In this document: in pieces, positions 1,768 through 62,602 of the stretch | Position numbering within the stretch: the stretch's first letter is position 1 | Layout of the letters: each line of letters starts with the position of its first letter | DNA from: Eledone cirrhosa | Lineage: Eukaryota | Assembly (NCBI GenBank): GCA_964016885.1 | Contig: OZ024743.1 | Location: 47,120,001 to 47,184,000 of the forward strand | Reading direction: 5' to 3' | Length of the DNA: 64,000 nucleotides | Translations under genes and position numbers: made by a program | The notes under the pieces: model-generated | What the model was told of the DNA's origin: nothing | Database searches by the model: none | The model's input: only the letters and a program-made list of their open reading frames with translations

Positions 1768-1803
<36 letters not shown>

Positions 1804-2454
1804 TACTTGGGGAGGGTCATATTTGTGTAATATTGCCAGAATTAATAACAGAACACACTCACTGTTTGGTTGGTTTTCGCTTTTCGCTTCTGTGTCTTTT
1901 ATATCGGTAATCTAATTTATTCGGTCCTCAATGTTGCCATTGACAGACCAATGGTCAAAAATAATACAGATACAATATAGACACAAACACATATATATAG
2001 TTTATCAAAGTTCTTTCGTTGCACATCTGCAACATCGTCAGTGGTGCTATTGTTTCCTCCCGTTACATTGTATTTTGTATTTTCTACGCCATCTTTATTT
2101 AGTCTGTTTATATATAACAGTTATATATATAATGGCTGCTCTCTCATTTTGGGTGTAGATCTTCTCATTGAACTTGAATATGTGGCCCTTTAGGGTAGTT
2201 TTGATACTAGCCCCTATTGCATGTGCGACCATTTTTCTTACCTGATCATTGTTTTGGGGGGTCCGTATAGCTTTGGTCCACCCAATCCACCTTCCCATGG
2301 GAGTCTTTTTTGCCATTGAGGTTATGGTGGGGGACTACCTCTTATGGGTCTACTAGGGCAGAAACGTCTAAGGTCATGGCTGTCTAGGTAGTCAGTGTCA
2401 TAGGTAAGTCTAAGTAGGAGGCCCAGTATAGCTGGTGATGTTGCCAACCTTTTC

Positions 2455-3666
2455 ATGGTATGGTGGGAAAGGAGACTTAAAGATCTCCTTAATGAGAGCT
2501 CCATAGACCTCATCATGTACTCTCATTACGTAGACGATATCAATATAGTTATAAGAACATCCCCACTAGAGAGCACTAACAAGTTTGATTTAGAACGTAG
2601 CACAAGGGAAAGCATCCAGCAGATAGCTAATTCCATACACCAGAGTATAACTGTAACTATCGACTACCCTTCCAAACACCCTAACAATAGACTACCTGTA
2701 TTAGACACGGAACTCTGGATTAACACTATAGACGAGAGAGCCCAAATTCTCCACTCACACTATGCTAAACCCATGGCCTCCAAATACCTGATACTCAAAA
2801 ACTCAGCAATGTCCAGTAGTGCTAAGTTTAATATTCTGATCGCAGATTTGGTACGAGTGATGAAGAATGTGTCCCGCATGTGCGACCCAACAGAAATGGA
2901 AAGACACATCCAACACTTCATCAACCGCATGCAGTTCTCTGGCTACAACCAAAGAGACAGAGTCAGAGTATACGAAGGAGCCATGGAGAAGTATAAGACC
3001 CTCATAGAACTGGACATGAAAGGAATTTGCCCATTATACAGGAGCAAATCATGGAATAGCTTAGATAGGGCTAGACATAAGATAGGGAAAGCCACCTCAT
3101 GGTACGACAACCAGAGATACCAGAGTGTCATGTTTGTGGACGCTACCCCTGGAGGGAAATTAGCTAACCAGTGTAGTAAGGCCCTGAGAAAGACCCACTT
3201 AAAGATTAAGGTGGTAGAAAAGCCAGGAACCACCATAAAATCCCTGATCAGCAAAACCCACTGTACTAATAGGAAATGTATCATATGTAAGGTAAACCCC
3301 CAGATAAACTGTAAAACTAGAAACGTAGTCTATAGCATAAGATGTACAGAGGGTACTTGCAGAAACATGACAACAACATACATAGGCGAGACAGCTCGTA
3401 GCATAGGTGAAAGGATAGACCAACACTGGGGGGAACTAAAAGGACGAAAAAACGGGTCAGTACTATACGAACATGCCAGACAACAACACAACGGTAACAT
3501 AGACAACATAGAAATTAGAATAATATCTAAACATAGAAATGACCCAGCAGATAGGCAAATCAGAGAGGCCAGTGAAATAGAATTTAGAAGGCCAAGACTA
3601 AACAGAAAGAATGAATGGAATAACAACAACACCCAAACAAACAACACTGACCTAAGAGAAGTATAA
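2455..3666 (+). CDS. PLE reverse transcriptase (C-terminal part) plus GIY-YIG endonuclease
   Basis: HYVDD RT motif, LPVLD motif, Cys-rich linker (CTNRKCIICK..C), VVY...YIGETAR GIY-YIG core and terminal E...I....P.LN. Confidence 0.9.
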   Translation: MVWWERRLKDLLNESSIDLIMYSHYVDDINIVIRTSPLESTNKFDLERSTRESIQQIANSIHQSITVTIDYPSKHPNNRLPVLDTELWINTIDERAQILHSHYAKPMASKYLILKNSAMSSSAKFNILIADLVRVMKNVSRMCDPTEMERHIQHFINRMQFSGYNQRDRVRVYEGAMEKYKTLIELDMKGICPLYRSKSWNSLDRARHKIGKATSWYDNQRYQSVMFVDATPGGKLANQCSKALRKTHLKIKVVEKPGTTIKSLISKTHCTNRKCIICKVNPQINCKTRNVVYSIRCTEGTCRNMTTTYIGETARSIGERIDQHWGELKGRKNGSVLYEHARQQHNGNIDNIEIRIISKHRNDPADRQIREASEIEFRRPRLNRKNEWNNNNTQTNNTDLREV

Positions 3667-3937
3667 ATAAATAAATAAATAAATAAATAGATAAATAAAT
3701 AAATAAATACATACACAAGCACAATAACAACAAACACATATAAACACACACTAGTAAAGATAGAATACATTAACCGATACACAGTCACCCAATCACGAAC
3801 ACACATCAAACAAAACACTATACACACATGCAAACGCATGCGCAAAGAAGACAAAATAAAATAAATAAACAAACAAATAAATAAATAAATAAATAAAAAT
3901 GGCGTAGACATACAATGTAACGGGAGGAAACAATAGC

Positions 3938-3979
3938 ACCACTGACGATGTTGCAGATGTGCAACGAAAGAACTTTGAT
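3938..3979 (+). ncRNA. Minimal type I hammerhead-like motif in the pLTR (antisense copy at about 2004-2045)
   Basis: CUGACGA, stem II GUUGCA-GAUG-UGCAAC, then GAAAG-AA-CUU. Stem I is imperfect (acca/ugau). A related motif with the same pLTR tail occurs at about 39141-39186. Confidence 0.55.
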
Positions 3980-4575
3980 AAACTATATATATGTGTTTGT
4001 GTCTATATTGTATCTATATTATTTTTGACCGTTGGTCAGTCAATGGCAACATTGAGGACCGAATAAATTAGATTACCGATATAAAAGACACAGAAGCGAA
4101 AAGCGAAAACCAACCAAACAGTGAGTGTGTTCTGTTATTAATTCTGGCAATATTACACAAATATGACCCTCCCCAAGTATAACAATATTTGTTTCGACAC
4201 ACGATTTCATATAAAAACCCTCGCAAAACTATATATATATATATAGTGAAAAATGGAACGGGAACAAAACAGAGAGGCGGTACGAACAAAGGTTTATTAG
4301 TTTCACGCTCTTGAGAGTGGGGGGGGGGGGTATATATATATATATATATGACCAACTAAATACACACGTGTGTTTTTTTTTTCTCGTTTTTCTGTTCGTT
4401 CCTCTTATCACTCTTTACTTTCTATTTATCTTCTATTTCTAATTCTATCTTTTGATAAAGGACTAGTGTCCAAAACTTTAAAACTTTCTTGCTGTTATTT
4501 CAAGTGTTAAACTAATATATTTCTTCCATGTACTGTGTCGTTTGTTTTGTTATTTTTGTTTTTACTTTTACATAC

Positions 4576-8490: not shown

Positions 8491-11216
8491 TCATCATCAT
8501 CATCATCATCATCAACGTTTAACGTCCGTGTTCCACGCTTGCATGGGTTTGGACGGGGGTAGTCCCACTTGAGGCAAGAGTGATTGTCTTGCTCGCATAG
8601 GACTGTCTGGCAGGTTTTCTACAGTTGGATGCCCTTCCTAACACCAACCACATTTACAGTGTGGGTCTGGGAGGTTTTTACCGTGTTGCCTACACGGCCA
8701 CATTACAGCGTGGACTGTGTGTTTTTTTGTCGTGACACCTACACGATCTCATTTGTTTCGGCCTGGATGGCGCGGCACCAACATAACTTTACATAGAACG
8801 GGGGTGGTGTGGATGGGGTGGGGGTGGTGGCGGGACGGGGTGTATTTTGTTAGAGATGCCTACTGGCAAGGCGGGTCTTCTCTGTTACTGAGTACCGCCA
8901 AAGGTCTCGGTCCAGTGACATTGTCTTGGAGAGGTGTAAGTGTGTGAGGTCGGAGTTTATCAGCTCATCCCATGTTTTTCTAGGTCTGCCTATTCCGTGG
9001 CTACCGTCTATCTTTATTGCCCTGCACTTTGTTATACAGCTATCGACTTTCATGCGCATCACGTGTCCATACCAACGCAGCCTTCTCTCGAGTAAACAAC
9101 ATCTGATCCCTCTTACCTCTAATTTTTTCCTTAGTTCGTTTATGCTTTGCCGTTCACGTATATTACTGTTACACATCCAGCGGAGCATGCAAGCTTCGTT
9201 CCTCTCTAGTCTGCGTATATCCTCTGCACACAATGCCCAGGTCTCACTACCATGCAACATTGCTGTTCGTATGCAGGCATCGTACAACCTGCCTTTCATT
9301 TTTAGGGAGAACCCTTTAGCAGCTAATAGTGGTATAAGCTCTCTGAACTTTTTCCAACCAGTTCTGACTCTAGCTACAGTACTTTCAGAGCACCCTCCCC
9401 CACTGCTGATTTTATCGCCCAGGTAACGGAAGCTGTCCACTATTTCTATAGAACCCTCTGCGCAATTGAAAGAGCTAGTATTTTGTGGGCACTTGCTGCT
9501 ACTTATTGCACCAGAACACCGGCCACATGTAAAATCTATGTTCTTAGTTAGCTTACCTGTGATCCCACTACATCTTTTATGCACCCATACTTTGCATTTA
9601 GGACATAAAATGGAGTTTCTACCTACGCCTTTCCTACACACCGAGCACGACCATTTCCCAGAAGGGACCGCCGCCTTGTTTTCTTTCCTACAAACTAGAA
9701 CTTTGGTCTTAGCCAGGTTAATTTTAAGTCCTTTTGACTCTAGGCCGTGCTTCCATGTTTGGAATTTCTTCTCTAGCTCGGCCATTGATTCCGCTATGAG
9801 TGTCAGGTCGTCTGCGTATAGGAGTTCCCATGGGCAGCCTGTCTTGAACTCCTCTGTTATAGCCTGAAGGGCAATAATAAATAGTAGGGGGCTGAGAACA
9901 GAGCCCTGATGGACGCCAACTTTTACGCTAAACTCTTCACTATATTCGTTGTTAATTCTAACCTTGCTGACTGTTTCTTTATACATGGCTTGTATAGCCC
10001 TCACAAGCCATTCGTCAACACCTAGTTTTCTAAGAGCCCACCAGATAATGGAGCGGGGGACTCTGTCGAAGGCTTTCTCCAGGTCGACAAAAGCTAAGTA
10101 GAGGGGTCTACCTTTAGCTAGGTACTTCTCCTGTAGTTGTCGTACTATGAAAAGGGCGTCTGTGGTGCTTTTGCCTGACACAAACCCGAACTGCATTTCA
10201 TCTAGGTCAATTCTCTCTCTGATTAGTTGCGCTATTACTTTTTCCGTGACCTTCATGACCTGGTCGATTAATTTAATGCCTCTATAGTTACTCCTATCTA
10301 GGGCGTCTCCTTTACCCTTATAACAGTTAACGATGATGCTGCTATGCCAGTCCTTCGGAACAACCCCATTCTGTACAACTTGGTTAACTATGCGGGTGAC
10401 CATGGTGTGTCCCACCGTGCCAGATGCCTTCAGCATCTCAGCAACTATTTCCGAAGGCCCAGCCGCCTTACCCGTCTTCATATCCTTGATTGCCTTACTT
10501 ATTATACTCCCCTCGACTAACACTGCTGGTCCCTCTATCGGGTCGATATGGGGGAGACTGTCTTTCTCCCATTTATTCTCCTCATTTAGTAGCCTTTCAT
10601 AGTGACACTTCCAAGCTACCTTCTTATCAGTGTCGGTGATGGCAAGTATGCCATCATCGTTAAGTACACACTTCTCCCCGACAATATCACGGTTTTCCTT
10701 GACGCATTGCCTGGCAATCCTGAACACCTCACGTTTTTGGTCATCGCGTTGTAGAACATGCTTGAACTTTCTTTCCTCAGCTTCCCTTCTTGCTAAGTAC
10801 ACTTCTCTCCTAGCTTCCCTCCTGGCCACTTGATAGTCTACTCTACTTCCCCCATCCCGCCATACTTTCCAAGCCTGCTTTTTGGCCTTAATTGACCCCT
10901 CCACCCTACTGTTCCACCACCAAGTTACTCTCCTCCTGCCTACAGGCCTGCTCCAGCCACAGACTTCGTCTGTCGCCAACAGCAGGTTTGCTTTCAGAAA
11001 TTCCCACTGTCCCTCTATATTGTCCGATTCTAGATGCTCTTCCTTACTGTCGAAAGCATCAAGTAATATGCTTTGAAATTTATTTCTGGCTGTGGGGTCC
11101 TTTAGTTTCCATATTTTCCTCCTGAGGATAGTCCTCTTCTGCTGTCGAGTACGTCTCGTCCTGACTATGAGGTCGCTAATTATCAGTCTATGTTGGGAGG
11201 TACATTTCATTACCAT
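8491..11216 (-). mobile_element. RTE-clade LINE, 5'-truncated, with uninterrupted 788-codon ORF (8850-11216)
   Basis: RT motifs KGKGD..NYRGI, QFGF, FVDLEKAFD, GVHQGSVLSP and YADD; RLRWYGHV..RPRKTW C-terminus; (GAT)n tail. Confidence 0.95.
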
Positions 11217-11374
11217 ATTTCTAAGGAATTACACTTATTAAATTAACTAACTGAGGTACCTGGTAATACTCGGGAGCGGGGTTCCCATTAAAATGCCCAA
11301 TGCCTCTCAGACCAAAAATGAAATCAAAATATAGGACAGATAACGAAAAGCGAAGACAAATTCATTCATAAAAC

Positions 11375-26500: not shown

Positions 26501-26603
26501 CAAGATATTCTGCAATGGGATCAAACCCGGAACCACGGGGTTATGAAGCAAATTCTTTTAACAACAGCTATGTCTACTCATATACACCCTTTATATATAT
26601 ATA

Positions 26604-27710
26604 TATTATAATTGAATATAAAAGAAAAGCGAACACAGATATATACATATGTGAGTTCAAATCATAACGGACCTGATTCGGTGAAAAGAATACTAACTAT
26701 AGACAATTGGGTTCGCTTGTCTCAATTTAAGAAAAATTCAAGAAAATAAATACAAACCAGAATAGTGGTAACTACCAATCACCCAGACAACTTGGTGTTG
26801 TTTCGCAATGTTGTGAATAGAATTACCAATTTATGCGAAACAACACCAAGTTGTCTGGGTGATTGGTAGTTACCACTATTCTGGTTTGTATTTATTTTCT
26901 TGAATTTTTCTTAAATCGAGACAAACAAACCCAATTGTCTATAGTTAGTATTCTTTTCACCTTAGCAAATCTGGTCCCTTATGATTTGAACTCATATATG
27001 TATATGTCTGTGTTCGTTTTTCTTTTATATTCAATTATAATATACGGCTCGGAAATATCTCTTTCTTAGAGCTATTTTGTTGTTAGAGACTATTTTGAGT
27101 TCCTAACTCAATATATACCTTTGATATATTTGGCTCCGTTAATTTGTTGAGCTATTTCAAATGTCGAATAAACCTGGCTGCTATTTTTAGTCGTGTGGGT
27201 TTGTGAGACATGCTAGGACACCATGTGTGCTATTTAACATTGCCTTTCATCCTTACAGGGTCAATAAAATAAAGTACCAGTAATGTAGTGGGTAATTGCT
27301 GGCCTTGTGCCAAAAATAGAAACAAATATTATATATAGCACACTATTCAGTTACTTAATATATTTAGAAGTGTCTAGGATACTAATTTATCACCCACTGA
27401 TGAGCATAAATTGGTAATTCTATTCACAATTAACATTGCGAAACAACACCAAGTTGTCTGGGTGATTGGTAGTTACCACAATTCCAGTTTGTATTTATTT
27501 TCTTGAATTTTTCTTAAATTGAGACAAGCGAACCCAATTGTCTATAGTTAGTATTCTTTTCACCGAATCAGGTCCCTTACGATTTGAACTCATATATGTA
27601 TATATCTGTGTTCGCTTTTCTTTTTTATTCAATTATAATATACGGCTTGGAAATATCTCTTTCTTAGAGCTATTTAGAGTTCCTAACTCAATATATACCT
27701 TTGATATATA
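26604..27710 (+). mobile_element. Non-coding HHR-bearing element: inverted arm plus head-to-tail partial dimer
   Basis: 26604-26807 is the reverse complement of 26834-27042. 26835-27127 is directly repeated at 27437-27706. Flanked by (TA)n. No ORF with recognisable motifs. Confidence 0.8.
27389..27466 (+). ncRNA. Canonical type I hammerhead ribozyme
   Basis: AUCACCCA CUGAUGA GCA..UGC GAAAC AAC-accaa-GUU GUC UGGGUGAU. 8-bp stem I, complete core and GUC cleavage triplet. Confidence 0.9.
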
Positions 27711-44127: not shown

Positions 44128-44578
44128 TCATTTTAAAATCTGTCGAGTGATCCTCTTCAGCCACTTGTAGTACTGACCAACATTTGTATAGACACCAAAT
44201 GTGTTGCTTTGATCGCAGTTATATCCCCAAGATACGATACCAACAAACGCCCAGCGTTTAGATTGGTGCAGTAATACACTATAAGGACCACCGCTATCTC
44301 CTTTGCACGAATCTGCTCGATAAACGTCATAAAATCCAGCGCAGAACATATTCTTCGTTATGTTGTGACCTTTGATTAGACTCTTCCGACATTTATGATC
44401 AGATACGTAAGGTAGCTTGACTTCATGAAGATGAGAAGAAGTATAACTGAACGCTGTCCCGCCACATCCAACCACTGTTCCGTAGGATCCTTCTAAGAAG
44501 CTGGCCTCTTCAATTAATTCATTGTCCACCAAACACAATGGATGAATATTCGAATTGAACACTAGTATTTCTTTCAAT
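44128..44578 (-). CDS. Mosaic serine protease, last exon (trypsin domain C-terminal half)
   Basis: IHPLCL, MFCAG, ADSCKGDSGGP (catalytic Ser, Asp189), GIVSWG and GVYT motifs. Stop at 44128. Phase matches the upstream exon. Confidence 0.95.
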
Positions 44579-44659
44579 CTGCAAAATAAAATACACACCA
44601 TTTAGAAACTCCTCTACCACCGAAAAACTAGATTTTAAAAACCTACAGAACAAATCAAA

Positions 44660-45380
44660 CACTAATCAACAAGTTCCCCCAAAGCATTTGGGATGCCATC
44701 CAGTGCAGCCTGGCTTCAGACAGGCTCACGCGCCAGCCCGACCAGCACCGCCTTGCCTGTTTTCGTGCGGCCTCCAAACCCCACAGTGGTGCCTGACTCC
44801 ATGCCCTGCCCTCCTTCTCCACTGGCACGCAGCTGGATAACAATAGCCTGCGCATCGGCGTTTCCTTGAGGCTTGGCCTCCGGATCTGCGAGCCACACCA
44901 ATGTCGCTGTGGTTCCGCCGTGGACTCTTCCGGCCTCCACCCGCTTTCCTGTTGCCACAGTGCCTTACACGCCATGCTGCCCTCAACGAGGTCATAAAGC
45001 ATGGCTTGGACGCTGCAGGCTTCCCTTCCCATCTCGAGCCGGTGGGGCTGGATCGGGGGGACGGAAAAGGCCAGATGGTATGACCATCTTCCCGTTCCGC
45101 GATGGCAATCCCCTCGTCTGGGATGCCACTTGCACCGACACTTTTTCCAGCCTGGTGCAGCCTGCGACTTACCCAGGTTCTGCTGCCCGTCGGGCTGAGG
45201 AGGCCCAACTCTTCAAATACCGCTCGCTCTCCGACAGGTTTGCGGTTGTACCCTTGGCAGTGGAGATTTCTGGTGTCCTCAGGCTTAGGGCTACCTCCCT
45301 ATTTACCATCATAGGCGCTGAGCTGGCCAGCCGCAGGTGTGAGCCTCGCGAGCTGGAATGGCTTTCTGGGGAGGCCACCA
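44660..45380 (+). mobile_element. CRE/R2-group non-LTR fragment in the last intron of the protease
   Basis: Cx[21 protein letters not shown] and [25 protein letters not shown] (Zn knuckle plus PD..D restriction-like endonuclease). Frameshifted. Confidence 0.8.
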
Positions 45381-45624
45381 ATATGATTGACTGACTTGTC
45401 ATTTTATCAGTAAATATGTCTTGGGTATGTAAAACTTAACAGAGCCCATACCTTCCCAGGTCTCACTTGGACATAAGTCCTTCTGCAGGAAATAGAAGGT
45501 TCAGAGAGAGATCAACAACACGTTTAATACGACACGCTAACAACTTTACCTGTTCACCAGCTGCAGGCCCAAAACTAAATAAAATAAAATAAAATAAAAC
45601 CCCAAAGTAAAAGAAATGACTTAC

Positions 45625-45845
45625 ATGATAATAGCAATGTCGTTATCATAGTTTGTCTTGTTGAATTTCGGATGTAGAATCCAATGTTTCATTTTAACCC
45701 TGATCCCACCGTGTCCAGAACAGTTATGGGTACCAACATATAGAAGGACGTTGGCGTTACTGAAGTTTTTAAAGGATTCGATACAGTGGGCAGCTGTCAC
45801 AATATGTCTTTTACTGACCAGAGTACCGCCACAAAATGAATGATT
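45625..45845 (-). CDS. Serine protease exon with catalytic His and Asp
   Basis: NHSFCGGTLVSKRHIVTAAHC...HPKFNKTNYDNDIAII. AG acceptor and gtaagt donor. Confidence 0.95.
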
Positions 45846-46034
45846 CTGACGAAATACAACAAAATATTGAAATGATAGTTTAGACTGCGTCTCAGATTAT
45901 TGATTTGACACGAGATATTATATACATAAATGCGATATTTGGCCCGATTCTTACATCCAGAGTTCAAATCTAGGTCAACTTTGCTTTTCACCTGTTTGAA
46001 CTCGATAAAGTACAGATCTAGTAGTGAAGTCGAT

Positions 46035-46066
<32 letters not shown>

Positions 46067-47137
46067 CTTCTTTCTTTCTCCCTCTTTCTCACACCTCTAT
46101 CTATCTATCTATCTATCTATCTGCCCATTCATTTCTATTTCTCGTGAAGAAATCGACTGCGTTCAGCCATGGAAAGGGAAAAGCATCGCCAAGTTTAAAT
46201 GTCACAACAAGCTTATTCTTTTCCCGGTCAATTACAGCCATTGGAAAGATATTTTGTCCGACATTCAGACGACACGGACCAACCCAATCTCCATTTTGAT
46301 ATCACAAGTAATAAATCTTTTAACATAGCTAACTAAAAATTAAAGAGCCCGCATGCGTCTGAAATACGTGTACGGAACTCAGTTACAACTCGAATGTAAT
46401 TGATGTGGTAGCTTAACGTTACTCTCCAATGCCCTCCGAGGTTCCTTGAGAATGGATAGCTTATTGGAAATATATTGGGAATAATAATAAAGTAAGGAGT
46501 GCGGGACTGCGTACGGTTTATTTCTTTTAATCCAGTTAGTAAAATAAGTTGGATTATTTTGAATAAATAATGAATGAATATTACATAATATATTTTATTC
46601 CTTATTTAAAGATTCACTTCTTTAAAATGTTCAAATGTCAACACTTCCGGTTAGCGATGGCTTAAATAAACATTCATATATTTCCGTTACTAATTTTCTC
46701 CTAATGCAGTTTATATATAATATCGTCTTTTTTTAATGTTTCATGGATTACGTTACTGATTACATAAGACTGTGTAACGCAGTCTTCGTTCAATTTCTGT
46801 GTATATTGTCAATTACTATTTTATTTGATGTATCATATATATATACTTGCGAATAGTATTAATATACACACTACACATGTATCAATAAACACACTACACC
46901 TTCGGGTGGTTTTTCTGCTAGTTCGGAATAATAAAAATTATCAATGTAACATCCAGATTCTCTCGTTTCTCCTTTTCCCTTCTCTTCCTTCTGTTCATTC
47001 TTACACTTTATCTTCCTTACTTGGTCTTATTCAATATTTGCAGCCTTGTTTGCATTGTAGCCGTTTACAAAATCTACCCATTGTTCAAATTTCATAATAC
47101 TTCAAGCAAACTAGAACTTATTTATCCAGTTTCTTAC

Positions 47138-47256
47138 CCTGACTGCATTAACGAAGATCGCAAACCAAGGTGCAGAGCCTTGTGCTGCCGGATACCCACT
47201 CTTGATTTTGGCTTCAATATTTTCTGTGTTTTTCGTAAAGATATTTTTACCACAAA
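47138..47256 (-). CDS. Serine protease exon: linker and activation site
   Basis: (V)CGKNIFTKNTENIEAK-IKSGYPAAQGSAPWFAIFVNAVR. CG linker, K/IxxG site and PW motif. Phases fit both neighbours. Confidence 0.9.
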
Positions 47257-48337
47257 CTGAAAATAATAATAAAAAATATAAATAAAATATCAAACAAGTT
47301 GAATACTATTTGAAATATTTGTTATTATTGTAACATTCTGTTAGTCTTTCTAAGGGGTTAACATGTTACAAAAGTACTGGCCTGTCTGAAAATGGTTTGG
47401 AAAATATAGTTATGTGTGTCTGGGATTTGTTTACAAACCACTAAATTCGTCTATTGGTTGTATTTGTTCCCTTATATATAAGAATAGCGCCTCTTCCACC
47501 CAATTTGATCAGATCATTTAAGGTTCCTCCCCTATATTTTCCATCGTACCTCTTAATTATTCTAGAGGACAGCAAGTTGGCAGAGCCGTTATGGTATCGG
47601 ATTAAAAATGTCTTGGTGTTTATTCTGGTTCACGGTCCTCTGAGTTCAAATCCCGCCGAGTTTAACTTCGCCTCTCACTCTTTCGAAGTCGATAAATAAA
47701 GTACCAGTCCAGTACTGGGTCGATTCTCCTTCTATATCTCGTTCTCACTTTCTCTCTCACGTTATCTCTCGCTCTTCACTGGAAGAAATCAGCTATGTTC
47801 AACCCCTACAACTCAGTGAGGAGCTAAGGGGCCCTGACATGGCAAGGAACCTCTTACTTCTAAACCTCACATACCCCGACTACCTTTTTCATTTTCTCTT
47901 CTCGTCAATTCACTCCTTCAACATTTAATTGCCTCCGAAATAAACAACGTCACTCCCCGCTCTCTCTCACTCACCTCTCATTTCTCTCAGAGACAGGACT
48001 TAAATGTTAGATTCTGCTTCTCTCGTGGCTCCTATATTTATCTAACCCTCCTGTAGATTACTTGTTGCCGATACAGACCAAGAAAACAGTTTCCTCAGAT
48101 TCAGGGATTTACCTGAACACATATTTATGTACTTTTCGTTCCACAATCTATTAATCTAAGAAATATACTAAGTTCAACATGTGTATGTGCATGTGTATGT
48201 GCATGTGTGTGTGTGTGTGTGTGTGTCTGTCTGTGTCGATGTGTCTGCATGTGTATATGTGTGTCAATCGCTCAACCTGTTTATCACTTCTTCAATCTGT
48301 CTGATAGTCACTTAATTTGTCAGTTGATCCCTAGATC

Positions 48338-48800
48338 TGTCAGTCAGTCAGTCAGTCAGTCAGTCAGTCAGTCAGTCAGTCTGTATTTCTGTCAGTCGGT
48401 CGGTCAGTCTGTATGTCAGTCAGTCAGTCAGACTGTATGTCAGTCAGTCGGTCGATTGGTCAGTCTGTTTGTCAGTCAGTCAGTCAGTCAGTCTGTATGT
48501 CAGTCAGTCGGTCGGTCAGTCTGTATGTCAGTCAGTCAGTCAGTCAGTCAGTCAGTCAGTCGGTCAGCCTGTATGTCAGTCAGTCAGTCAGTCGGTCGGT
48601 CAGTCTGTATGTCAGTCAGTCAGTCAGTCAGTCAGTCAGTCAGTCGGTCAGCCTGTATGTCAGTCAGTCAGTCAGTCAGTCAGTCAGTCAGTCAGTTTGT
48701 ATGTCAGTCAGTCAGTCAGTCGGTCGGTCAGTCTGTATGTCAGTCAGCTAGTCAGTCAGTCAGTCAGTCTGTATGTCTGTCAGTCGGTCGGTCTGTGAGT
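48338..48800. repeat. (CAGT)n compound microsatellite
   Basis: Direct inspection. Confidence 0.95.
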
Positions 48801-49016
48801 CTGTATGTCTGTCTGTTTGTCACTAATTCAGACAGTATGTTTGTCTGTGAGTCAATCAGTCTGTCCCTCAGTCAGTTTGTCTGTCTGTCTGCCACTAATT
48901 TAATCTGTCTGTGTGGGAGTCAGTTCCTCAGTCAATCTTATGTGTGTCATTAATCGAGTGCATTATAAAATGACATAGGAAATTTCCCGTTGCCATAGTG
49001 ATTAGTGGCACTTTAC

Positions 49017-49158
49017 CTTTATTAGTGGTATCTATTAGTTGTACTTCCAGGGACATCTCAATCACTGCGGAACATTGTGTGGGGCCAACAGCCATACATT
49101 TGTACTTTCCGTCATCAACTGCTTTCACTCTTCGGAAGATTATCGAGTCCGAATCAAT
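49017..49158 (-). CDS. Protease exon, second Ig domain C-terminal half
   Basis: IDSDSIIFRRVKAVDDGKYKCMAVG contains the DxGxYxC motif. Splice sites and phases fit. Confidence 0.9.
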
Positions 49159-49910
49159 CTATTAATGGACATTAAAAATAAAAAAAATTGAAATAAAAAA
49201 CCCGAAAAACAACAGCAATTGGTTGAGGCAGAACGCCAGGGGGACGACATATTTGAATGAGACATTCTTTGGTCGGTTTTGAAAGGATGAAAGGCAACAT
49301 GGACCGTGGTGAGAGTTGAACTCAGATCGTAAAAGGGATATTAAATAAATACAACAAAGCGTTTTATCGATTGCTCCACTGATTCTGGTAATCCTTTGAC
49401 ATCAAACATATTGATTCATAATTCTTTCCATATTTACCAAGAAATATTGGTTTCCCGTTGGTAGATTCGTTAACACGTTGGATTAAATGCTTCGCTGTAT
49501 TTGTTTCGGCTCTTCATAGACCACAGAGATAAACTTCGTTCTTCATCCTTTTGGGGTCGATAAATAAAGTATAAGTTCAAGCAAGGAGAAGCGGTGGAAT
49601 TGTTAAAAACCGTATCTGTTTCGGCTGTGGGTGCTCAAATCCCTCTTCCTCTCGCATAAAAAGCTGTAATGCTGTTGTCAGGATTTGTGCGCGGTAGAGA
49701 GTATCAGAAATGGATGACCAATAGAAACATAATTTACTTGGTTTGATCTTTCTTTTCTTTCATTTCTTTCCTTTCCTCAAAGTCGTATTTTGAAAAATGG
49801 AAGAGGGCCATAGTATATGATCTACAGAATCAAGGAAGATTTCCAAGACTCGAGAAAAAAAGGCCTACAAATATGGAAGAAAGAAACATGAATGATAAAA
49901 TATCCCTTAC

Positions 49911-50047
49911 GTATCTGCGGTGATTTGTCTTCAGCGGATGTCCATCTTTTAGCCAAGAAAACTGAATTCCTAAATTAGGCGTTACAGGACATGTTAGCAT
50001 TGAACTGTGGTTATAGATAATTGTACGATTCACAGCCTCCGTCGTAT
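49911..50047 (-). CDS. Protease exon, second Ig domain N-terminal half
   Basis: TTEAVNRTIIYNHSSMLTCPVTPNLGIQFSWLKDGHPLKTNHRRY (LxC..WxKDG). Confidence 0.9.
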
Positions 50048-50178
50048 CTGAAAAAATTTTAATATTTACATCATATATATATATATATATAAAACAAAGA
50101 GGGTGTGGTAGGATACCAGGTGGACCATAACGCACCAGAGTACTCAATATTTAGGGTAGTATATATATATATACACAC

Positions 50179-50225
<47 letters not shown>

Positions 50226-50404
50226 GAGAGGGGGGGAGGGGTAGAACACTGAAAGGTAATATCTGTAGTGGTAGAGCACTCAGTCCATGGGACAAGTTTG
50301 GTAGTAGTAACACAACAGTTATTTCACCATACCGAGAATAATTGTTTCACCTTATACGGATCTTCAATTGTTATCGGTATGGTGAACTAACTGTTGTGTT
50401 ACTA

Positions 50405-50471
<67 letters not shown>

Positions 50472-51169
50472 GTTTGTATATGTATAATAAAGCCAAAACA
50501 ATGCAGGTATGGACATAGAATAAAGAATGCAAATGCAAAAGATATTGTTGACAATTAGTCTTTTACATCAGATTTATTTAAATGTCCTTAATTTTCGAGA
50601 TAATATCTCTTCTTCGGAGGGAAGTAAAGCGGTTAAACCAGTGTTCTAAGGTAAAAGACTAATTGTCAACAATATCTTTTGCATTTGCAAACTTTATTCT
50701 ATGTCCATGCTTGCATTGTTTTGGCTTTATTATACATATACAAACGTTTATACCTCATTACACAATGCTTCAAGTGAACTATAACTTCCTCCATATATAT
50801 ATATATATAGTTGATAAATGAAACAAACAAAACACAGGAACAATATTACATAGTTATATTAGGTTCACGCTTGGTGGAAAAGGAGGAGGTTTCAACGTTT
50901 TGGACAGAAATCCTTCTTCAGCAAAGTTCGGATAAGGAGAAAACAGATACACGTATGAGTAGTGTGAGAAGGTTAGTGAAGGAAGTTAAGAAAAAAAAGT
51001 GATGATAGGGGGAGGTGGGTGAACGATCCTGTCTGGGGGATCAGGGTAAGGAAGTGGCATGGGTGTAGTTGTGTGTGTGTGTATCGAAGAGAAGAAATTG
51101 GTAGATGTGCGTGGCTTCAGTCTATGTGTCCCAGAGTCTTATATATATATATATGGCCACACAAACACG

Positions 51170-51282
<113 letters not shown>

Positions 51283-51980
51283 TAGAAGCTTTCGCCGTAT
51301 TTTTTTACTAAAGAAATGTTAGCCTGATAGTGTGGTTTAGAACCCTCTAAGAAATATACACCCACCCTATCATTTTCACTAAATTGATACAACGAAAATA
51401 CTTATCTGTCAAACAATAAATAAATCTCCGGTTTATTGCCAGTGTGCCGTCAGACCTACAGCACACGCATATACCTCTTAAATCCTGACTCCAAGTACAT
51501 TTTATCAGTTATCTCTTCACCACCTTAACACTACATCTAATGTACCCTATAGCAGTTTTCACATGTCAATTTCATACATCTGTATCATATCAGTTCGTTT
51601 AATATGCTAGATTCATCATTATACTCTATTTCTTACTTATATTGATGTTATTATTTTAACTATTCAGTATCTAGTTATTTTATTATTGATATTATTGTTC
51701 TGGTTTAATACCACTCCTCTATAAAAGCCATGCCTGAGTATCTTCCTCACTTTCGCACGCTCTGATGAAAACGACTGGTTATAAACAAAGTATTGGAGAT
51801 CGATTGACGCAACATCAAGCGAGTAGCGAACTCTAGACCTACCAGATCAAAGAAACAATTGGTCTGCAATGTGAATAAATCCCTTATTGTATAGCCAACA
51901 ATGTCACTCTTCTTTCTTGAATTATATATATATATATATATATATGGGGAGGGTCATATTTGTGTAATATTGCCAGAATT

Positions 51981-52023
<43 letters not shown>

Positions 52024-52180
52024 GAACTGGGATTGGAGTTGTAGGTGAGTAAACAGGAGCAACACATCACCCGGTCAGGGAACTCACGACTTTATGATCG
52101 CGAGTCCAGCACCCTACCCACTAAGCCATATACACCTTCATAAAAATGAACGAAATCGTTTTTTTACTTACATAACTTAC

Positions 52181-52350
52181 ATATGGGCTGAACGGTGAGC
52201 TTCTTAGTATCGAAGTAAGCATCTGTGTCTATGAATACTGCACACTTGTAGAGACCTTCGTCAAATTCTGTCACTCCTTCGATGTATAACGCACTGCGTG
52301 CTACTATCCGTTCATTCTCATTTCCCTGGATTAGATTGCCGTCTCGGAAC
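52181..52350 (-). CDS. Protease exon, first Ig domain C-terminal half
   Basis: (W)FRDGNLIQ..SALYIEGVTEFDEGLYKCAV..KLTVQPI. The split TG/G codon restores the Ig Trp. Confidence 0.9.
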
Positions 52351-52969
52351 CTAAACAACAGACAAGGGATGGGTGACAACATTGAAATAGTCTGTTGCAC
52401 GTGCACACACGCAAAGACACACACATACCCCACACACGCACTACCCCCCCCCCTGCTCCCCCCACACACTACCACGCATACATACACGCTCCCCCTACAC
52501 ACACACTCCCCCTACACACACACTATCACACATACACACACACTACCACACATACACACAAACTACCACACACACACACAACACTCTCCCCCACACACAC
52601 TATCACACATACACACACTACCACACATACACACACACACACACTCGCCCCACCCACACACTACCACACATACCACCACTCCCCCCACAATACCACACAT
52701 ACACACACACACACACACACTCGCTCCACACACTACCCCCCCCCACATGAATAAATAAGTTCAATGAGCCCTACATTTCTAAAATTGTGTTGGGGATATA
52801 CATGACCAGTAAATATACTTTTTAAGAATCAGAAATGTAAATTTCTTAAAGTCCTGTTCTAGTCGAAACCACATCAGCTACTGTAACAGTGAAACTCTAA
52901 ACACCTTTCAGCTACCATTCCTGGGGTTCTTCAACCTCCAGAGAGCCTGGTGTTATACATCCTCCAAAA

Positions 52970-53039
<70 letters not shown>

Positions 53040-53044
<5 letters not shown>

Positions 53045-53416
53045 TGTTGGATGTGCAATGTCAATGTGCGTGAATAACCAAGCATAGATGAGTTGAGAGA
53101 GAAACTGGGTATAAGAGGGATAAGTTGTGGTGTGCGGGAGAGAAGACTGAGATGGTATGGACATGTGATGCGCATGGAGGATGACCGCTGGGTAAAGAAG
53201 TTCCAAGAAATCCCAGTAGAAGGAAGATACAGTAGAGGAAGACCACGTAAAACATGGGCGGAGGTGGTGAGAGCAGACCTCAGATTGCTGAAACTCACGG
53301 AGGAGATGACAAAGGACCGTGACAAGTGGAGAGATGCTGTGCTGAATAGGACACGTCCCACCCTTGCAAGCAGGGAAAAGCGGACATAAAATGATGATGA
53401 TGATGATGATGATGAT
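53040..53416 (+). mobile_element. RTE LINE 3' fragment
   Basis: LREKLGIRGI..RRLRWYGHVMRM..RGRPRKTW with (GAT)n tail. Confidence 0.85.
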
Positions 53417-54123
53417 ACAAGTCAGCTGACTTGAGGTACTATAAAGGTCCAATTGGCAGAGTCACTAGAGTATCGGATTAAAAATACCTCGGTATTTATT
53501 CTCACTCAGCGCACTCTGAGTTTAAATTATACCAAGGTTAAGTCAGCCTTTCATCCTTTCGAGGTCGATAAATAAAGTACCTGTTTAATACTGTAATTAA
53601 TTTTCCCTCCCACTCTCTTTCTATCTCTCCTTCTTTTTCTGGAAGAAATCGGATGCATTCTAACCTGGAGAGGGATGGGATTCACCATATTTAAGATATT
53701 CAAGACATGCCGTGTGTCAGAACGGCGCTTCTACGTCTCCATTAGAAGTTAATGGCCCTTTGTGTGTAGTTGGTTGTCGAGGGTAAAGAATGATCAAACG
53801 ACAACCCGGTGGATACAAAGATTGTAATGGTTTGGTAGAGATTGAGTTTAGGGGCGGGAAATAAGGCAAGGGTGTTTGCAGTGTCCGTATGCCAGTCAGG
53901 GATGTGTGTATGGGGGTAAAACTAATTATTGTTGTAAAGAGTTGAAAATTGTAAAAGTTTCGTCTTTGGCATTAACAGCCTCATTGTAGGATAAGTGTGA
54001 AAGCAAAGCAGAGTTGTGAACATTGAAGTCTCCGAGGACGATGTCTTCAGAGAGTGCTGAAATGAGAAACATAATTTAATGTATTTTAGAAAAACGAGTT
54101 GTGTTCAGTCTATATAAACTTAC

Positions 54124-54227
54124 CAGTAAACTTTATCTAGTTTATTTCCGTTTAAGGTACAAGTGTATATAATATTTGACATTCTTTCAACGACACTGTT
54201 GCCTATCATTTTCACTTCATACTTGGG
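54124..54227 (-). CDS. Protease exon, first Ig domain N-terminal half
   Basis: PKYEVKMIGNSVVERMSNIIYTCTLNGNKLDKVY(W). ttttcag acceptor and gtaagt donor; phase 0 to 2 fits both neighbours. Confidence 0.85.
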
Positions 54228-54937
54228 CTGAAAAGTGAAAAGAAAATTATAGTGTTGGTGCCAAACAAATCTAGATATCTTGAACAAACATTAATTTACG
54301 TTTTCCATTTAGCACGGTAGTGTTACAGTAGTGGCTAAACATGTCTTCTGTGTGAGGCTTCTAACAATATACAGGACTATAGGAGAAATTGAACTTGACA
54401 GAATATGGATATGAAATTCTCATTAATTATGTTATGTTGAGCTGTTGTTTAATCCCGGTCTTTCCTGATCCTGAAAACCTATGATCAAAGACATTCCAGC
54501 TGTGACAATCTGGTTTTTGTTGAGATGCAGTGTATGACTGAATGTGTACCTCCTCTTTAAAGGAAACACAATTTCATTCCACTCGCCATATATATGAAAA
54601 ATGCAATAGAATATAATGAACCTCCATCGATTTCGTGGATGAGTCTTTCAGTTGTTCGATTAACTGAACAATCTGCTTGTGAAATTAATGTTCAAGTGGC
54701 TAAGCACTCCACAAATATGTGTACTCTTAACATAATAGACTGTAGACTATTTGGTGGGTAAATATAATCCATCAACCAGTTTAAAACCACCACCGTGTAT
54801 TTGGGAACCTTTTATCAGTGTCCACTCTGATGCAAGCATTAGAGCCAGATCTCTAGCTTGAGGATACCCTCATGAGTCACAGAAACCCCGAATAGGATCA
54901 TGGGCACTGTTCTTCCCTCTGTGACTAAACTAAATAG

Positions 54938-55005
<68 letters not shown>

Positions 55006-55018
55006 AGTCACATCTCAC

Positions 55019-55172
55019 CTGATCACAGTTATATCCAATGAAACCTCCAGTGCATAGACAGAGATATCCAATCTTCCTTTCTCTACAGGTTCCACCATTT
55101 TTGCAAGGTTTTTCGAAACAGCTTATTGGTATGTTACAATGCTCGCCTTCGTAGCCGTTAGCACATTTACAC
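55019..55172 (-). CDS. Protease exon, EGF repeats
   Basis: CKCANGYEGEHCNIPISCFEKPCKNGGTCRERKIGYLCLCTGGFIGYNCDQ. Confidence 0.92.
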
Positions 55173-55929
55173 CTGAAATCGACAAAAAAATGCAAATCAT
55201 ACAAATAATCAATTAGTTATCCTTCTAGGGAATGATTGTGTGTGTGACAGCTCACACCTATGCAGGTTTAGCTGGCCTCCTCCAAGGTATATCTCGTTGG
55301 AGGTGTCTTGGGTAATTTAATGATAGGGACCCCAGTCCCTATCATCTCATTTCTGCAGCTGAGTAAACTGGAGCAACGTGAAAAAGTGTCTTGCTCAAGG
55401 AAACAACACATCACCCGGTCCGAGAATTGAACTCACAACCTTTCGATTGCAAGCCTTCACTAGGGAATGATTGATACAAATGTGAATCTAACATGATAGA
55501 ATAAGATCCGAGGAAACTAGTGAATGTCTCTCGTTAGCAACAATAAATCAAAAGGAAAGTTCGCTGAATATTGACTAAATTGAATTGCCATGAAGAGTAG
55601 AATGTTTAACGGTTCGGGATTTTGAACTTCATCAGAGAATTGAAGAAGACGAAGTTGTTTTCCTGTACTACTGGCTGAAACATTACATTTTCTACACTTC
55701 AAGTCAATTGAATTGATTTGACATTCTCTAAACACTACTTTTTATATGATTGAAGTCAAGCTCTTGTTACTCATTATGCATCATTAGCTCATGCATGCAA
55801 GAGGGAATGGAACGCACATCTACCCCTCCTACCAGCTTCACTGCCGTTCTCTTTCGTTTCTACCACCCCAACTTACACATTCTTCTATCTTTTTTACCAG
55901 CCTCATTCACACATTGCTTTATCTTTTCT

Positions 55930-60387: not shown

Positions 60388-60475
<88 letters not shown>

Positions 60476-60738
60476 AAGGCATATATTGAGTTAGAAACTC
60501 AAAATAGTCTCTTACAATAAATTAGCTCTAGGAAAGAGATTTTTCCGAGCCGTAAAATATAACTGAACAAAAAAGAAAAACGAACACAGACATATACATA
60601 ATATATGTGTTCAAATCGTAAGGGACCAGATTCGCTAAGGTGAAAAGAATACTAACTATAGAGAATAGAGTTTGCCAGACTCAATTTAAGAATAAATCAA
60701 GAAAAATAAATACAAACCAGAATTGTGGTAACTACCAA

Positions 60739-60820
60739 TCACCCGGACAGTTTTGATAATACTGTTTCGCAATATTAATTGTGAAGAGGAATACCAAAAT
60801 TCTTGCTCATCAGCGGGTGA
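60739..60820 (-). ncRNA. Canonical type I hammerhead
   Basis: UCACCCG CUGAUGA GCAA..UUGC GAAAC AGU..ACU GUC CGGGUGA. Confidence 0.9.
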
Positions 60821-61102
60821 AGAATTATTAGTATCCTGATCACTTCTAAGTATATTGAAAAACTGGATAGTGTGCGTGTATATAACAACGCACATAGTAG
60901 TTCTAACTCAATATATGCCTTTGATATATTCGGCTCCGTTAATTCGTCGAGCTAATTCAAATGTCGAGTAAACCCGGCTGCTATTTTTAGTGGCGTGAGT
61001 TTGTGAGACACGCTAAGTTCGGATACCATGTGCGTTGTTATATATACGCACAATATACAGTTTTTTAATATACTTAGAAGTGATCAGGATACTAATAATT
61101 CT

Positions 61103-61184
61103 TCACCTGCTGATGAGCAAGGATTTTGGTATTCCTCTTCACAATTAATATTGCGAAACAGTATTATCAAAACTGTCCGGGTGA
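61103..61184 (+). ncRNA. Canonical type I hammerhead
   Basis: UCACCUG CUGAUGA GCAA..UUGC GAAAC AGU-auuaucaaa-ACU GUC CGGGUGA. Confidence 0.9.
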
Positions 61185-61355
61185 TTGGTAGTTACCACAA
61201 TTCCGGTTTGTATTTATTTTTCTTGATTTATTCTTAAATTGAGTCTGGCAAACCCTATTGTCTTTAGTTAGTATTATCTTCACCTTAGCGAATCTGGTCC
61301 CTTACGATTTGAACACATATATGTATGTCTGTGTTCGTTTTTCTTTTTTGTTCAG

Positions 61356-61391
<36 letters not shown>

Positions 61392-61458: not shown

Positions 61459-61496
61459 AGTGGTTTTTATATATATAAGTGGTATATATATATATA

Positions 61497-62414
61497 TAAG
61501 TGGTTACACAACAGTTAGTTCACCATACCGAGAACAATTGTTTCACCTTAGTGGATCCTCAGCTCGTAATGGACATGGTTATACGGAACAGGAAGGATAA
61601 CCGTACGAACGCGCATGCGCAGAAACCGGTCACTTCACACAGGCAATACTAAAATGCGTGCGAGAGGTGTAAGGGAGATAACTGCGAAAGTCCGAAAAGT
61701 ATCTAGTTGATAAGAAAATTATGATGTTGTAATTCAATCCGGAGCTTTCTTGTCCCCTTCAACAGCAATGCAACACACCCGCTGTAATTTATGAAGCTGT
61801 GGTCACTTCCAACCCACAAAATCAACCACAGGTGGTCAAATCCTATGTGGGTATGGCGGAGGGCCGATTTAAGGAACGTTTCCTGAACCACCAGTCGACC
61901 TTTAGGTACCCGGACAGACGTTCATCCACGAAACTCGCGAGCCACGTATGGTCCCTCAAGGACTCGAGTATAGACTACTCCATTCAATGGAAAGCCATCA
62001 CTAAGTCCAAGCCATACGCAAGGGGAAATCCGTCGTGTGGACTATGTATTGATTAACGAATAAATATTCTAAAGAGATTATGCAATAGTGATTGCCTAAA
62101 CACGAGAAATGAATTCTTCACACGTTGTCCACACGTCTCGAAACACCTCTTGCATAACTACAAAGCTCCGGATTGAATTACAACGACATCATAATTTTCT
62201 TATCAACTAGATACTTTTCGGACTTTCGCAGTTATCTCCCTTACACCTCTCGCACGCATTTTAGTATTGCCTGTGTGAAGTGACCGGTTTCTGCGCATGC
62301 GCGTTCCAATGGTTGTCCTTCCTGTTCCGTATAACCGTGTTCATTGCGAGCTGAGGATCCGGTAAGGTGAAACAATTGTTCTCAGTATGGTGAACTAACT
62401 GTTGTGTAACCACT
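61497..62414 (+). mobile_element. Truncated Penelope-like element: GIY-YIG fragment between inverted pLTRs
   Basis: About 250-bp inverted arms (61497-61748 and 62162-62414). Between them CPL..C..AVIY.A.V..YVG....FKERF.NH..T.LASHVW.LK..W..C.LC..LN.RNE, with one premature TAA. Confidence 0.85.
62348..62383 (+). ncRNA. Minimal type I hammerhead (antisense copy at 61529-61566)
   Basis: GAG CUGAGGA UCC-GGUAA-GGU GAAAC AAUU GUU CUC. Palindromic stem III acaauugu; stem II is short. Confidence 0.65.
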
Positions 62415-62602
62415 TCTACCTAACTCGTCCATTGAACTGAGTGCTCTACCATTACGGATATTACCTTCCAGTGTTCTATCACTATAAATATATATATATA
62501 AATTCTCCCCCCCCCTCTCTCCCTGTATATATGCGTGTGTGTGTGTGCAAATATATATGTATATATATATATGTATATATATATATACATATATATATAT
62601 AC

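What the first reader, a model, noticed from the sequence alone, without database searches (positions are those of the whole stretch)
60470..61360. Second family member shows compensatory changes in hammerhead stems
Compared with the 27389 copy, stem I changes from CCA/UGG to CCG/CGG and stem III from AAC/GUU to AGU/ACU, while CUGAUGA, GAAAC and GUC are invariant. This covariation argues that the fold was under selection. The motif ttctaactcaatatatgcctttgatata ends the inverted arm and starts the forward arm, confirming circular permutation of the unit. Intact HHRs are present on both strands (60739 and 61103).
Basis: partly seen in the sequence, partly recalled or inferred. Interest (0 to 1): 0.75.

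Follow-up and report, generated by a model that had tools for sequence, protein, structure and literature searches.

The report
Penelope-borne retrozyme with self-braking hammerhead
This is one insertion of a 521-base non-coding jumping repeat whose hammerhead-ribozyme stems were kept paired through repeated double mutations; it likely hitch-hikes on Penelope-type enzymes, and an extra conserved helix is predicted to restrain its self-cutting, which makes its control testable.

Summary
The motifs are real. 60469-61361 is a head-to-head insertion, in (TA)n, of a 521-nt non-coding unit with a type I hammerhead (609 strict motif matches genome-wide, control 0). The two-copy comparison proves little alone. 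On a tree of 121 copies built outside the ribozyme, however, stems I and III show five pair-keeping double changes, three of them through G·U intermediates. Covariation is significant only when the structure is given (E 0.0014, 0.019), not all-versus-all (best E 0.4). Selection acted on source lineages; inserted copies decay neutrally.

Corrections: the plus copy has CUG/CGG. The two hammerheads are mirror copies, not a viroid-like pair. The shared 28-mer shows a head-to-tail junction, not a circle.

The two arms end at two fixed sites 89 nt apart (47 mixed pairs, 1 same-site), the Penelope tail signature. Added here: a 14-20-bp helix between the 5' flank and loop II, kept with other sequence in a 68%-identical sister family and predicted to out-compete the active fold; that family fixes U4A in the core. 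Class: non-LTR retrozyme, new variant. The scan noted probably the same family and the twin-end pattern on other DNA. No RNA data.

The parts
60469..60899 (-). Left arm: unit positions 96-521, 5'-truncated, outer (3') end at site B in (TA)n
60901..61361 (+). Right arm: unit 494-521, head-to-tail junction, then 1-433; outer (3') end at site A in (TA)n
61104..61183 (+). Type I hammerhead: stem I 61104-09/61178-83 (one private U·G), CUGAUGA 61110-16, stem II GC(AA)/(UU)GC with long loop, GAAAC 61155-59, stem III, predicted cut after 61177
   Evidence: sequence; pair counts
60740..60819 (-). Mirror copy of the same hammerhead, stem I fully Watson-Crick; predicted cut between 60746 and 60745
61079..61142 (+). 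5' flank (61079-61103) complementary to loop II (61119-61142): predicted long helix; mirror at 60844-60820 / 60804-60781
61187..61196 (+). Small hairpin GGU-AGUU-ACC 3' of stem I (GGC/GCC in other subfamilies)
60524..60552 (-). Hairpin GGCUC...GAGCU just 3' of end site A (start of the 89-nt tail); likely RT start signal
   Evidence: function inferred
60931..60953 (+). Second copy of that hairpin, just 3' of end site B
   Evidence: function inferred
60901..60928 (+). 28-nt end-B motif preceding the head-to-tail junction; also at 60496-60469 (-)
60390..60473 (.). (TA)n at the left outer end
61358..61390 (.). (TA)n at the right outer end
26596..27709 (.). Comparison insertion (AAC/GUU subfamily): minus arm ending at site A; plus arm with a partial and a full unit ending at site B; hammerhead 27391-27464; SINE piece about 27236-27330

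Best explanation
The locus is a two-armed insertion of a 521-nt non-coding repeat with a hammerhead fold whose stems were conserved by compensatory changes; it was likely copied by a Penelope-like (probably Hydra-clade) reverse transcriptase from a tandem or circular RNA, and a conserved flank-to-loop II helix is predicted to keep self-cleavage slow.

Steps:
1. Shown: the unit is non-coding, occurs in thousands of places, reads through a head-to-tail junction, and ends in (TA)n.
2. Inferred: tandem transcripts are cut by the hammerhead into monomers that may be circularised, as shown for coral, mussel and axolotl retrozymes.
3. Shown: arms end at two fixed sites 89 nt apart, each followed by a GGCUC...GAGCU hairpin, and a two-armed insertion uses one of each. 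Inferred: the endonuclease cuts both strands in (TA)n and two RT starts, one at each hairpin, extend the two ends, as Poseidon_Ac does in vitro.
4. Shown: pair-keeping changes mark subfamily branches while inserted copies decay neutrally, so selection acted on RNAs that were copied.
5. Predicted: the proximal flank helix could act as a stem I-II pseudoknot, but the full 14-20-bp helix leaves only 6-10 nt to close stem II and so likely holds the ribozyme off most of the time. This fits most arms reading through the cut site.
For: Copy number: 2694 first-look candidates, 609 strict motifs, 708 exact 22-mers; pattern controls 0.

Ends: of 83 two-armed loci, 47 pair an A end with a B end, 1 A/A, 0 B/B, 35 have an eroded end (p=2e-13). 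31 of 166 arms exceed one unit, up to 855 nt.

Tree of 121 copies with positions 140-275 masked: stem I A-U to G-C, and back to A-U in a nested 2-locus clade; stem III C-G to U-A, G-C to A-U and A-U to G-C, each with G·U copies near the switch. Structure-given E 0.0014 and 0.019; slid controls far lower. The sister family adds C-G to U-A in stem I and AGA/UCU, AAA/UUU in stem III.

Flank helix: a copy's flank pairs better with its own loop II than with the other family's in 57 of 62 and 17 of 20 copies. The nested active fold is a median 9 kcal/mol worse than the free ensemble (106 rows).

Arms starting at the predicted cut: 7 of 9 pattern hits, against 1 and 0 true starts at two control positions; p 0.008-0.025.

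A young Hydra-type element with its own two-end pattern is abundant in the genome. Two-site RT initiation and extension of both strands are shown for a PLE in PMC11167929.
Against: No RNA evidence and no cleavage assay. No pair reaches E<0.05 all-versus-all, and much of the sample was selected on core and stem bases.

No single pair of the flank helix is significant (best E 8-18), and pair 23:84 is C·C in 39 of 106 rows, including this subfamily. Between subfamilies of this family, the own-partner energy is not always the best.

Arms do not stop more often at the edge of the flank helix (0 seen vs 5 expected; sister family 7 vs 4.4, p=0.16). The cut-site excess is modest, absent in 20-nt bins, and not significant in the sister family (3 vs about 1.1, p=0.10). 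Some basal copies carry an A·C mismatch in stem III.

No autonomous element sharing this unit's sequence was found in the loci fetched. In PMC11167929, hammerhead mutants do not affect insertion in vitro. Folding here excludes pseudoknots.
Confidence: 0.68

Rival explanations
1. The fold is kept as a protein-docking or RT-handling structure; catalysis is weak or dispensable, and the templates are uncut tandem transcripts of a few source arrays rather than circles.
For: Most arms read through the cut site (7 starts found among 708 motif matches, with a filter that catches under half). A sister family with 2453 candidates fixes U4A, and CUGA-turn mutants are low-activity in a deep scan (10.1101/2022.05.17.492349). 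Hammerhead mutants do not affect PLE insertion in vitro (PMC11167929). The longest arm seen is only 1.6 units.
Against: No clade-level change at the 12 core sites (sample partly selected on the core). G12, A13, A14 and the GUC triplet persist in the 68%-identical family. Arm starts are in excess at the exact cut.
Confidence: 0.22
2. The flank helix is only a stabilising stem I-stem II pseudoknot, as in many natural hammerheads, and speeds cleavage rather than braking it.
For: About 40% of hammerheads use such a pseudoknot, and stem II is often 2 bp (PMC3088659). The proximal pairs are the best kept (32:72 and 33:71 paired in 103-104 of 106 rows).
Against: The distal 4-9 pairs are also kept in both families, and only 6-10 nt remain to close stem II around a 14-20-bp helix. 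That this is too short is my estimate from recalled pseudoknot geometry, not a computed model.
Confidence: 0.3
3. The copies are only 3' remnants (solo pseudo-LTRs) of an autonomous Penelope-like element.
For: Inverted 5'-truncated copies, one-sided tails and (TA)n targets are standard for PLE insertions (PMC8557442).
Against: End B joins directly to unit position 1 with no ORF, and 31 of 166 arms pass that junction beyond one unit. PLE ORF fragments near family loci are separated from the unit by (TA)n in the 4 loci read.
Confidence: 0.06
4. The apparent covariation is subfamily divergence plus CpG decay (CCG/CGG decays to CCA/UGG by itself).
For: Both stem I sites are CpG. Whole-unit scores are topped by non-pairing columns.
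Against: With midpoint rooting the first change is A-U to G-C, a gain of CpG. Half-changed copies are 6 of 106. Stem III changes three pairs, and the sister family changes others, including a transversion pair. Changed sites form complete pairs (p=0.0017).
Confidence: 0.05

Closest known systems
Metazoan non-LTR retrozymes (Cervera and de la Pena 2020, PMC7229834, passages read; review PMC7761336, passages read; Li, Clavereau and Pollet 2026, 10.64898/2026.07.22.740005, parts 1-3 of 5 read)
   Same: Non-coding, low-GC unit with one type I hammerhead, head-to-tail junctions, thousands of copies, proposed mobilisation by PLEs.
   Different: Unit is 521 nt (170-400 nt in the 2020 paper; 51-972 bp in the preprint). 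Copies are mostly 1-1.6 units in head-to-head pairs. Loop II is 35-45 nt and pairs with the 5' flank. Expression and circles are not shown here.
Penelope-like elements, Hydra clade (Craig et al. 2021, PMC8557442; section 11, passages and File S1 rows read) and Poseidon_Ac (Frangieh et al. 2024, PMC11167929; passages read)
   Same: Inverted 5'-truncated arm, tail on one end only, (TA)n target, hammerhead 5' of the ends; the tail lies between two RT start sites.
   Different: No RT or endonuclease ORF. Tail is 89 nt rather than 30-40. The hammerhead has a 5-bp stem III with a non-palindromic loop, not the minimal dimer type (PMC4209133, passages read). No sequence shared with the neighbouring Hydra-type family.
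Pseudoknotted natural hammerheads and core variants (Perreault et al. 2011, PMC3088659; section 8 and passages read)
   Same: Two-pair stem II and Watson-Crick contact between the stem I and stem II regions.
   Different: The examples read have 4-6-bp pseudoknots that promote cleavage; here the helix is 14-20 bp. U4A is not among the variants named in the text read; supplementary Figs S6-S7 were not seen.

Membership tests
Type I hammerhead ribozyme | Core C3 U4 G5 A6 N7 G8 A9, G12 A13 A14, A15.1-U16.1, H17 | tested here: met
   Both window arms. The sister family has A at position 4.
Type I hammerhead ribozyme | Three stems around the core, stem I open | tested here: met
   Cells paired 96%, 98%, 98% in stems I, II, III on 106 rows (some positions fixed by the search patterns); two pairs significant when the structure is given.
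Type I hammerhead ribozyme | Active fold is the favoured fold | tested here: not met
   Nested active fold is a median 9 kcal/mol above the ensemble; pseudoknots not modelled.
Type I hammerhead ribozyme | Self-cleavage after GUC | tested here: inconclusive
   Indirect only: 7 arm starts at the site vs about 2.5 expected. No assay possible.
Type I hammerhead ribozyme | Match to an Rfam hammerhead model | tested here: not met
Non-LTR retrozyme | Short non-coding low-GC unit with one type I hammerhead, in head-to-tail repeats | tested here: met
   521 nt; junction read through in many copies; no ORF of 100 aa or more at 60469-61361.
Non-LTR retrozyme | Arrays with two complete hammerheads in tandem | tested here: met
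   For example L026 and L054 carry two same-strand hammerheads one unit apart; not at this locus.
Non-LTR retrozyme | Expressed as linear and circular monomer RNA | not testable with these tools
   No RNA holder listed.
Penelope-like element (autonomous) | RT plus GIY-YIG ORF | tested here: not met
   No ORF in the unit; none attached in the loci checked.
Penelope-mobilised non-autonomous element | Inverted 5'-truncated arm, one-sided tail, microsatellite target | tested here: met
   47 A/B, 1 A/A, 0 B/B among 83 two-armed loci; ends in (TA)n.
Penelope-mobilised non-autonomous element | End sequence shared with an autonomous partner | tested here: inconclusive
   No significant match to 29 loci of the neighbouring Hydra-type family or to two other window elements; other PLE families not surveyed.
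Viroid-like RNA with ribozymes in both polarities | A hammerhead in each polarity of one unit | tested here: not met
   Each arm has one sense hammerhead; the two are inverted copies.

The most novel reading that the evidence does not exclude
These retrozymes carry a switchable hammerhead. A long, compensated helix between the 5' flank and loop II keeps a single unit or circle from cutting, and releases cleavage only on refolding, protein binding or a stem I/II swap between neighbouring tandem units. A sister lineage has fixed U4A in the supposedly invariant CUGA turn and still cuts and spreads.
Probability: 0.2. Interest if true: 0.72.

Novelty: new variant of a known kind. Interest (0 to 1): 0.46.

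Why it matters
What hammerheads do in Penelope-like elements and retrozymes is called unresolved in the papers read (PMC8557442, PMC7761336, PMC11167929). This family offers a dated series of natural mutants: double changes with their G·U intermediates, a conserved flank helix that predicts a brake, and a sister lineage with a changed catalytic core. Each can be tested with short in vitro transcripts. The strict pairing of A and B ends extends two-site RT initiation, shown in vitro for one PLE, to a non-coding client. The class of element itself is known.

Tried and rejected
Rfam: no hammerhead hit. Pfam: no family for the two PLE-like ORFs in the window.

Sequencing runs: no RNA holder listed. 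Three runs of unrecorded kind from one sample, kept as contigs, show only that the unit is multi-copy; no contig spans the locus and no empty site was seen.

Extended stem I (UACUAAU with AUUGGUA after the cut) is rejected as the conserved partner: it is broken in the basal subfamily, where the 3' strand keeps its own hairpin and the flank keeps pairing with loop II. A loop II-loop III kiss (UUGGUA/UACCAA) is complementary in many copies but has no covariation score and is lost in one subfamily; left open.

RT stalling at the flank helix: not supported. My first background for cut-site starts (expected 1.0, p 8e-5) was too low and is replaced by survival-based values. The 529-nt unit carried an 8-nt join error, corrected; the circular-fold z-scores (-3.9 sense, -4.3 antisense) used the faulty unit and do not favour a strand.

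RNAalifold on the gapped whole-unit alignment returned almost no structure. A cofold test of a swapped dimer was uninformative: -65.1 vs -66.8 kcal/mol for two monomers, with the flank helix not retained. A Pol III promoter was considered from box-like motifs near 60990-61028 (recalled consensus) and dropped because T-runs lie before the ribozyme.

Autonomous partner: not found. Literature searches for a cephalopod retrozyme or a natural U4A hammerhead returned none in listings or passages read. Lunse et al. 2017 is not held.

Full report
What is there. The region is a head-to-head pair of arms between (TA)n runs. The left arm (60899 to 60469, minus) and the right arm (60901-61361, plus) are parts of one 521-nt unit. 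The right arm begins with the last 28 nt of one unit, crosses a head-to-tail junction and stops at unit position about 432 (site A). The left arm stops at 521 (site B). Each arm carries the same type I hammerhead in sense: CUGAUGA, GAAAC, GUC, a 6-bp stem I, a 2-4-bp stem II with a 35-45-nt loop, and a 5-bp stem III. The plus arm has CUG/CGG, a private change. Rfam finds no hammerhead. No ORF of 100 codons lies in the insertion.

Family size. The unit gives 2694 first-look candidates in the 3.0-Gb genome. Two motif patterns give 609 and 462 matches and a 22-mer gives 708; reversed controls give 0. Median private divergence is 2.6%, and 1.6-1.8% for the two window arms.

Covariation. I aligned 106 of 110 distinct hammerhead copies; four with truncated or deleted flanks were dropped. 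Most were found with patterns that fix the core and some stem bases. With a tree-based null their all-versus-all E-values are 0.4-0.6 and 2.4-4.9. On the whole unit (121 copies) the best E is about 9 and non-pairing columns lead. With the 13 hammerhead pairs given, E is 0.0014 and 0.019 for these two and 0.14 for two more. The named structure exceeds shuffled and slid controls, which do not correct for kinship.

Events on a tree. On a tree built with positions 140-275 masked and rooted at the midpoint, stem I goes A-U to G-C once and back to A-U in a nested two-locus clade. Three stem III pairs each switch once, with G·U copies near each switch: L008; L129 and L098; L070 and L039. The eight stem sites with clade-level changes form four complete pairs out of ten (p=0.0017). 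Against this, a few basal copies carry an A·C mismatch in stem III. CpG decay could mimic the stem I change, but the first change gains CpG and half-changed copies are rare.

Where selection acted. The 12 core sites show no clade-level change; the rest of the unit shows 0.73 per site, a figure inflated in the masked region, and sampling favoured intact cores. In 56 copies found without the core, private changes hit the core at 2.4% against 2.5% elsewhere, and 39 keep all 12 bases. So the fold mattered to RNAs that were copied, not to inserted copies such as this one.

The 20-25 nt 5' of stem I are complementary to loop II; this helix is the predicted minimum-energy fold for both window arms. 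Within the family, 4 of its 14 pairs show double changes and 89% of cells pair, but none is significant and one pair is C·C in 39 rows. Stronger support comes from a sister family, 68% identical. There the proximal helix has different sequence on both sides (UUUCCUG/CAGGAAU against UACUAA/UUGGUA), and a copy's flank pairs better with its own loop than with the other family's in 57 of 62 and 17 of 20 cases. Medoid copies of eight subfamilies give 14-20 bp with 6-10 nt left to reach the 3' strand of stem II. Short stem I-II pseudoknots promote cleavage in other hammerheads (PMC3088659). By recalled pseudoknot geometry the full helix is too long for that linker, so I read it as a brake; a purely stabilising role remains a serious rival. 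Arms do not stall at its edge.

A changed core. The sister family reads CAGA(A/U)GA in 98 of the first 100 listed matches (115 in all) of a pattern that left the position free, and in all 19 of 30 core-independent loci that cover it. Its stems are compensated: UACCCG/CGGGUA, AGA/UCU, AAA/UUU. A deep mutational scan found CUGA-turn mutants low in activity (10.1101/2022.05.17.492349, passages). U4A is not named in the core-variant section of PMC3088659 or in the passages of PMC4209133 and PMC7151607; two searches found no report. Supplements that could hold it were not seen: Perreault Figs S6-S7, Craig File S2, bioRxiv supplements.

How it moves. Of 83 distinct two-armed loci, 47 pair an A end with a B end, 1 pairs A with A, none B with B, and 35 have an eroded end. 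Each end site is followed by a GGCUC...GAGCU hairpin. Inverted 5'-truncated copies, one-sided tails and (TA)n targets are PLE hallmarks, the last for the Hydra clade (PMC8557442). Poseidon_Ac cuts and extends both target strands and starts RT at two internal sites that bound the tail (PMC11167929). The adjacent element at 61495-62418 belongs to a young, abundant Hydra-type family with the same two-end pattern but no shared sequence. It shows that suitable enzymes exist, not that it is the partner. 31 of 166 arms exceed one unit, at most 855 nt, which fits a circle or a tandem transcript equally.

Does it cut? Nine of 708 matches lack all three GUC bases; seven are arm starts at the predicted cut, two are internal deletions. 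Control positions gave one and no true starts. With a background of 0.005-0.006 starts per nt, about 2.5-2.8 are expected, p 0.013-0.025; against the controls p is 0.008. The sister family gives 3 against about 1.1, p=0.10. This is suggestive only. A transcript through this palindromic locus is predicted to bury the ribozyme in duplex on either strand, so this insertion is unlikely to be a source copy.

Comparison and novelty. It works like, and by structure belongs with, metazoan non-LTR retrozymes (PMC7229834; preprint 10.64898/2026.07.22.740005; PMC7761336); expression and circles could not be tested. Searches for cephalopod retrozymes returned none; a squid genome paper lists 235 Rfam hammerheads without analysis in the passage read. 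Earlier notes of this scan describe probably the same family, oversized hammerheads and twin end hairpins on other DNA. I tested those points here and do not count the notes as support; one of them prompted the stricter controls on cut-site starts. A word search found no note on the core variant.

Verdict. Observation partly confirmed, interpretation partly supported, new variant of a known kind, interest 0.46.

Noticed in passing
L004:1032-1206; L201-L245, L257-L286: Sister family, about 490 nt, 68% identical, 2453 candidates, same tail hairpins and two ends. Core is CAGA(A/U)GA in 98 of the first 100 of 115 pattern matches and in all 19 of 30 core-independent loci that cover the site.
   Followed up: yes
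window 61495-62418: Separate two-armed 3' fragment of a Hydra-type PLE: endonuclease remnant 61733-62056, CxCX5C linker in longer copies, minimal hammerhead-like motif near 62350, tail of about 68 nt; 48,676 first-look candidates, top copies 94-100% identical in protein.
   Followed up: partly
window 1795-4188: Another PLE-like insertion: 420-codon RT/GIY-YIG-like frame at 2404-3666 between 279-nt inverted arms.
   Followed up: no
window 27783 (-), 27790 (+), 38175 (-), 36443 (-): Further CUGAUGA...GAAAC motifs of unrelated small elements; one abuts the comparison copy across (TA)n.
   Followed up: no
121 family copies: Slight excess of private A>G over T>C on the sense strand (153 vs 169, expected share 0.40, p=0.0075, one of six tests; C>A vs G>T p=0.012), a possible trace of RNA editing.
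   Followed up: partly
unit positions 1-20, 361-380, 421-440: 5' ends of arms cluster in these bins; the first and third may be alignment artefacts at the junction and at site A.
   Followed up: no
window 44128-55216 (-): Frames resembling trypsin-like, Ig-like and EGF-like exons of a host gene on the minus strand (read by eye); the insertion may lie in or upstream of it.
   Followed up: no
window 5616-59455, 13 copies: A SINE-like family; a piece of it interrupts the comparison copy at about 27236-27330.
   Followed up: no
window 8850-11228 (-): 792-codon LINE-type RT frame with partial copies nearby.
   Followed up: no
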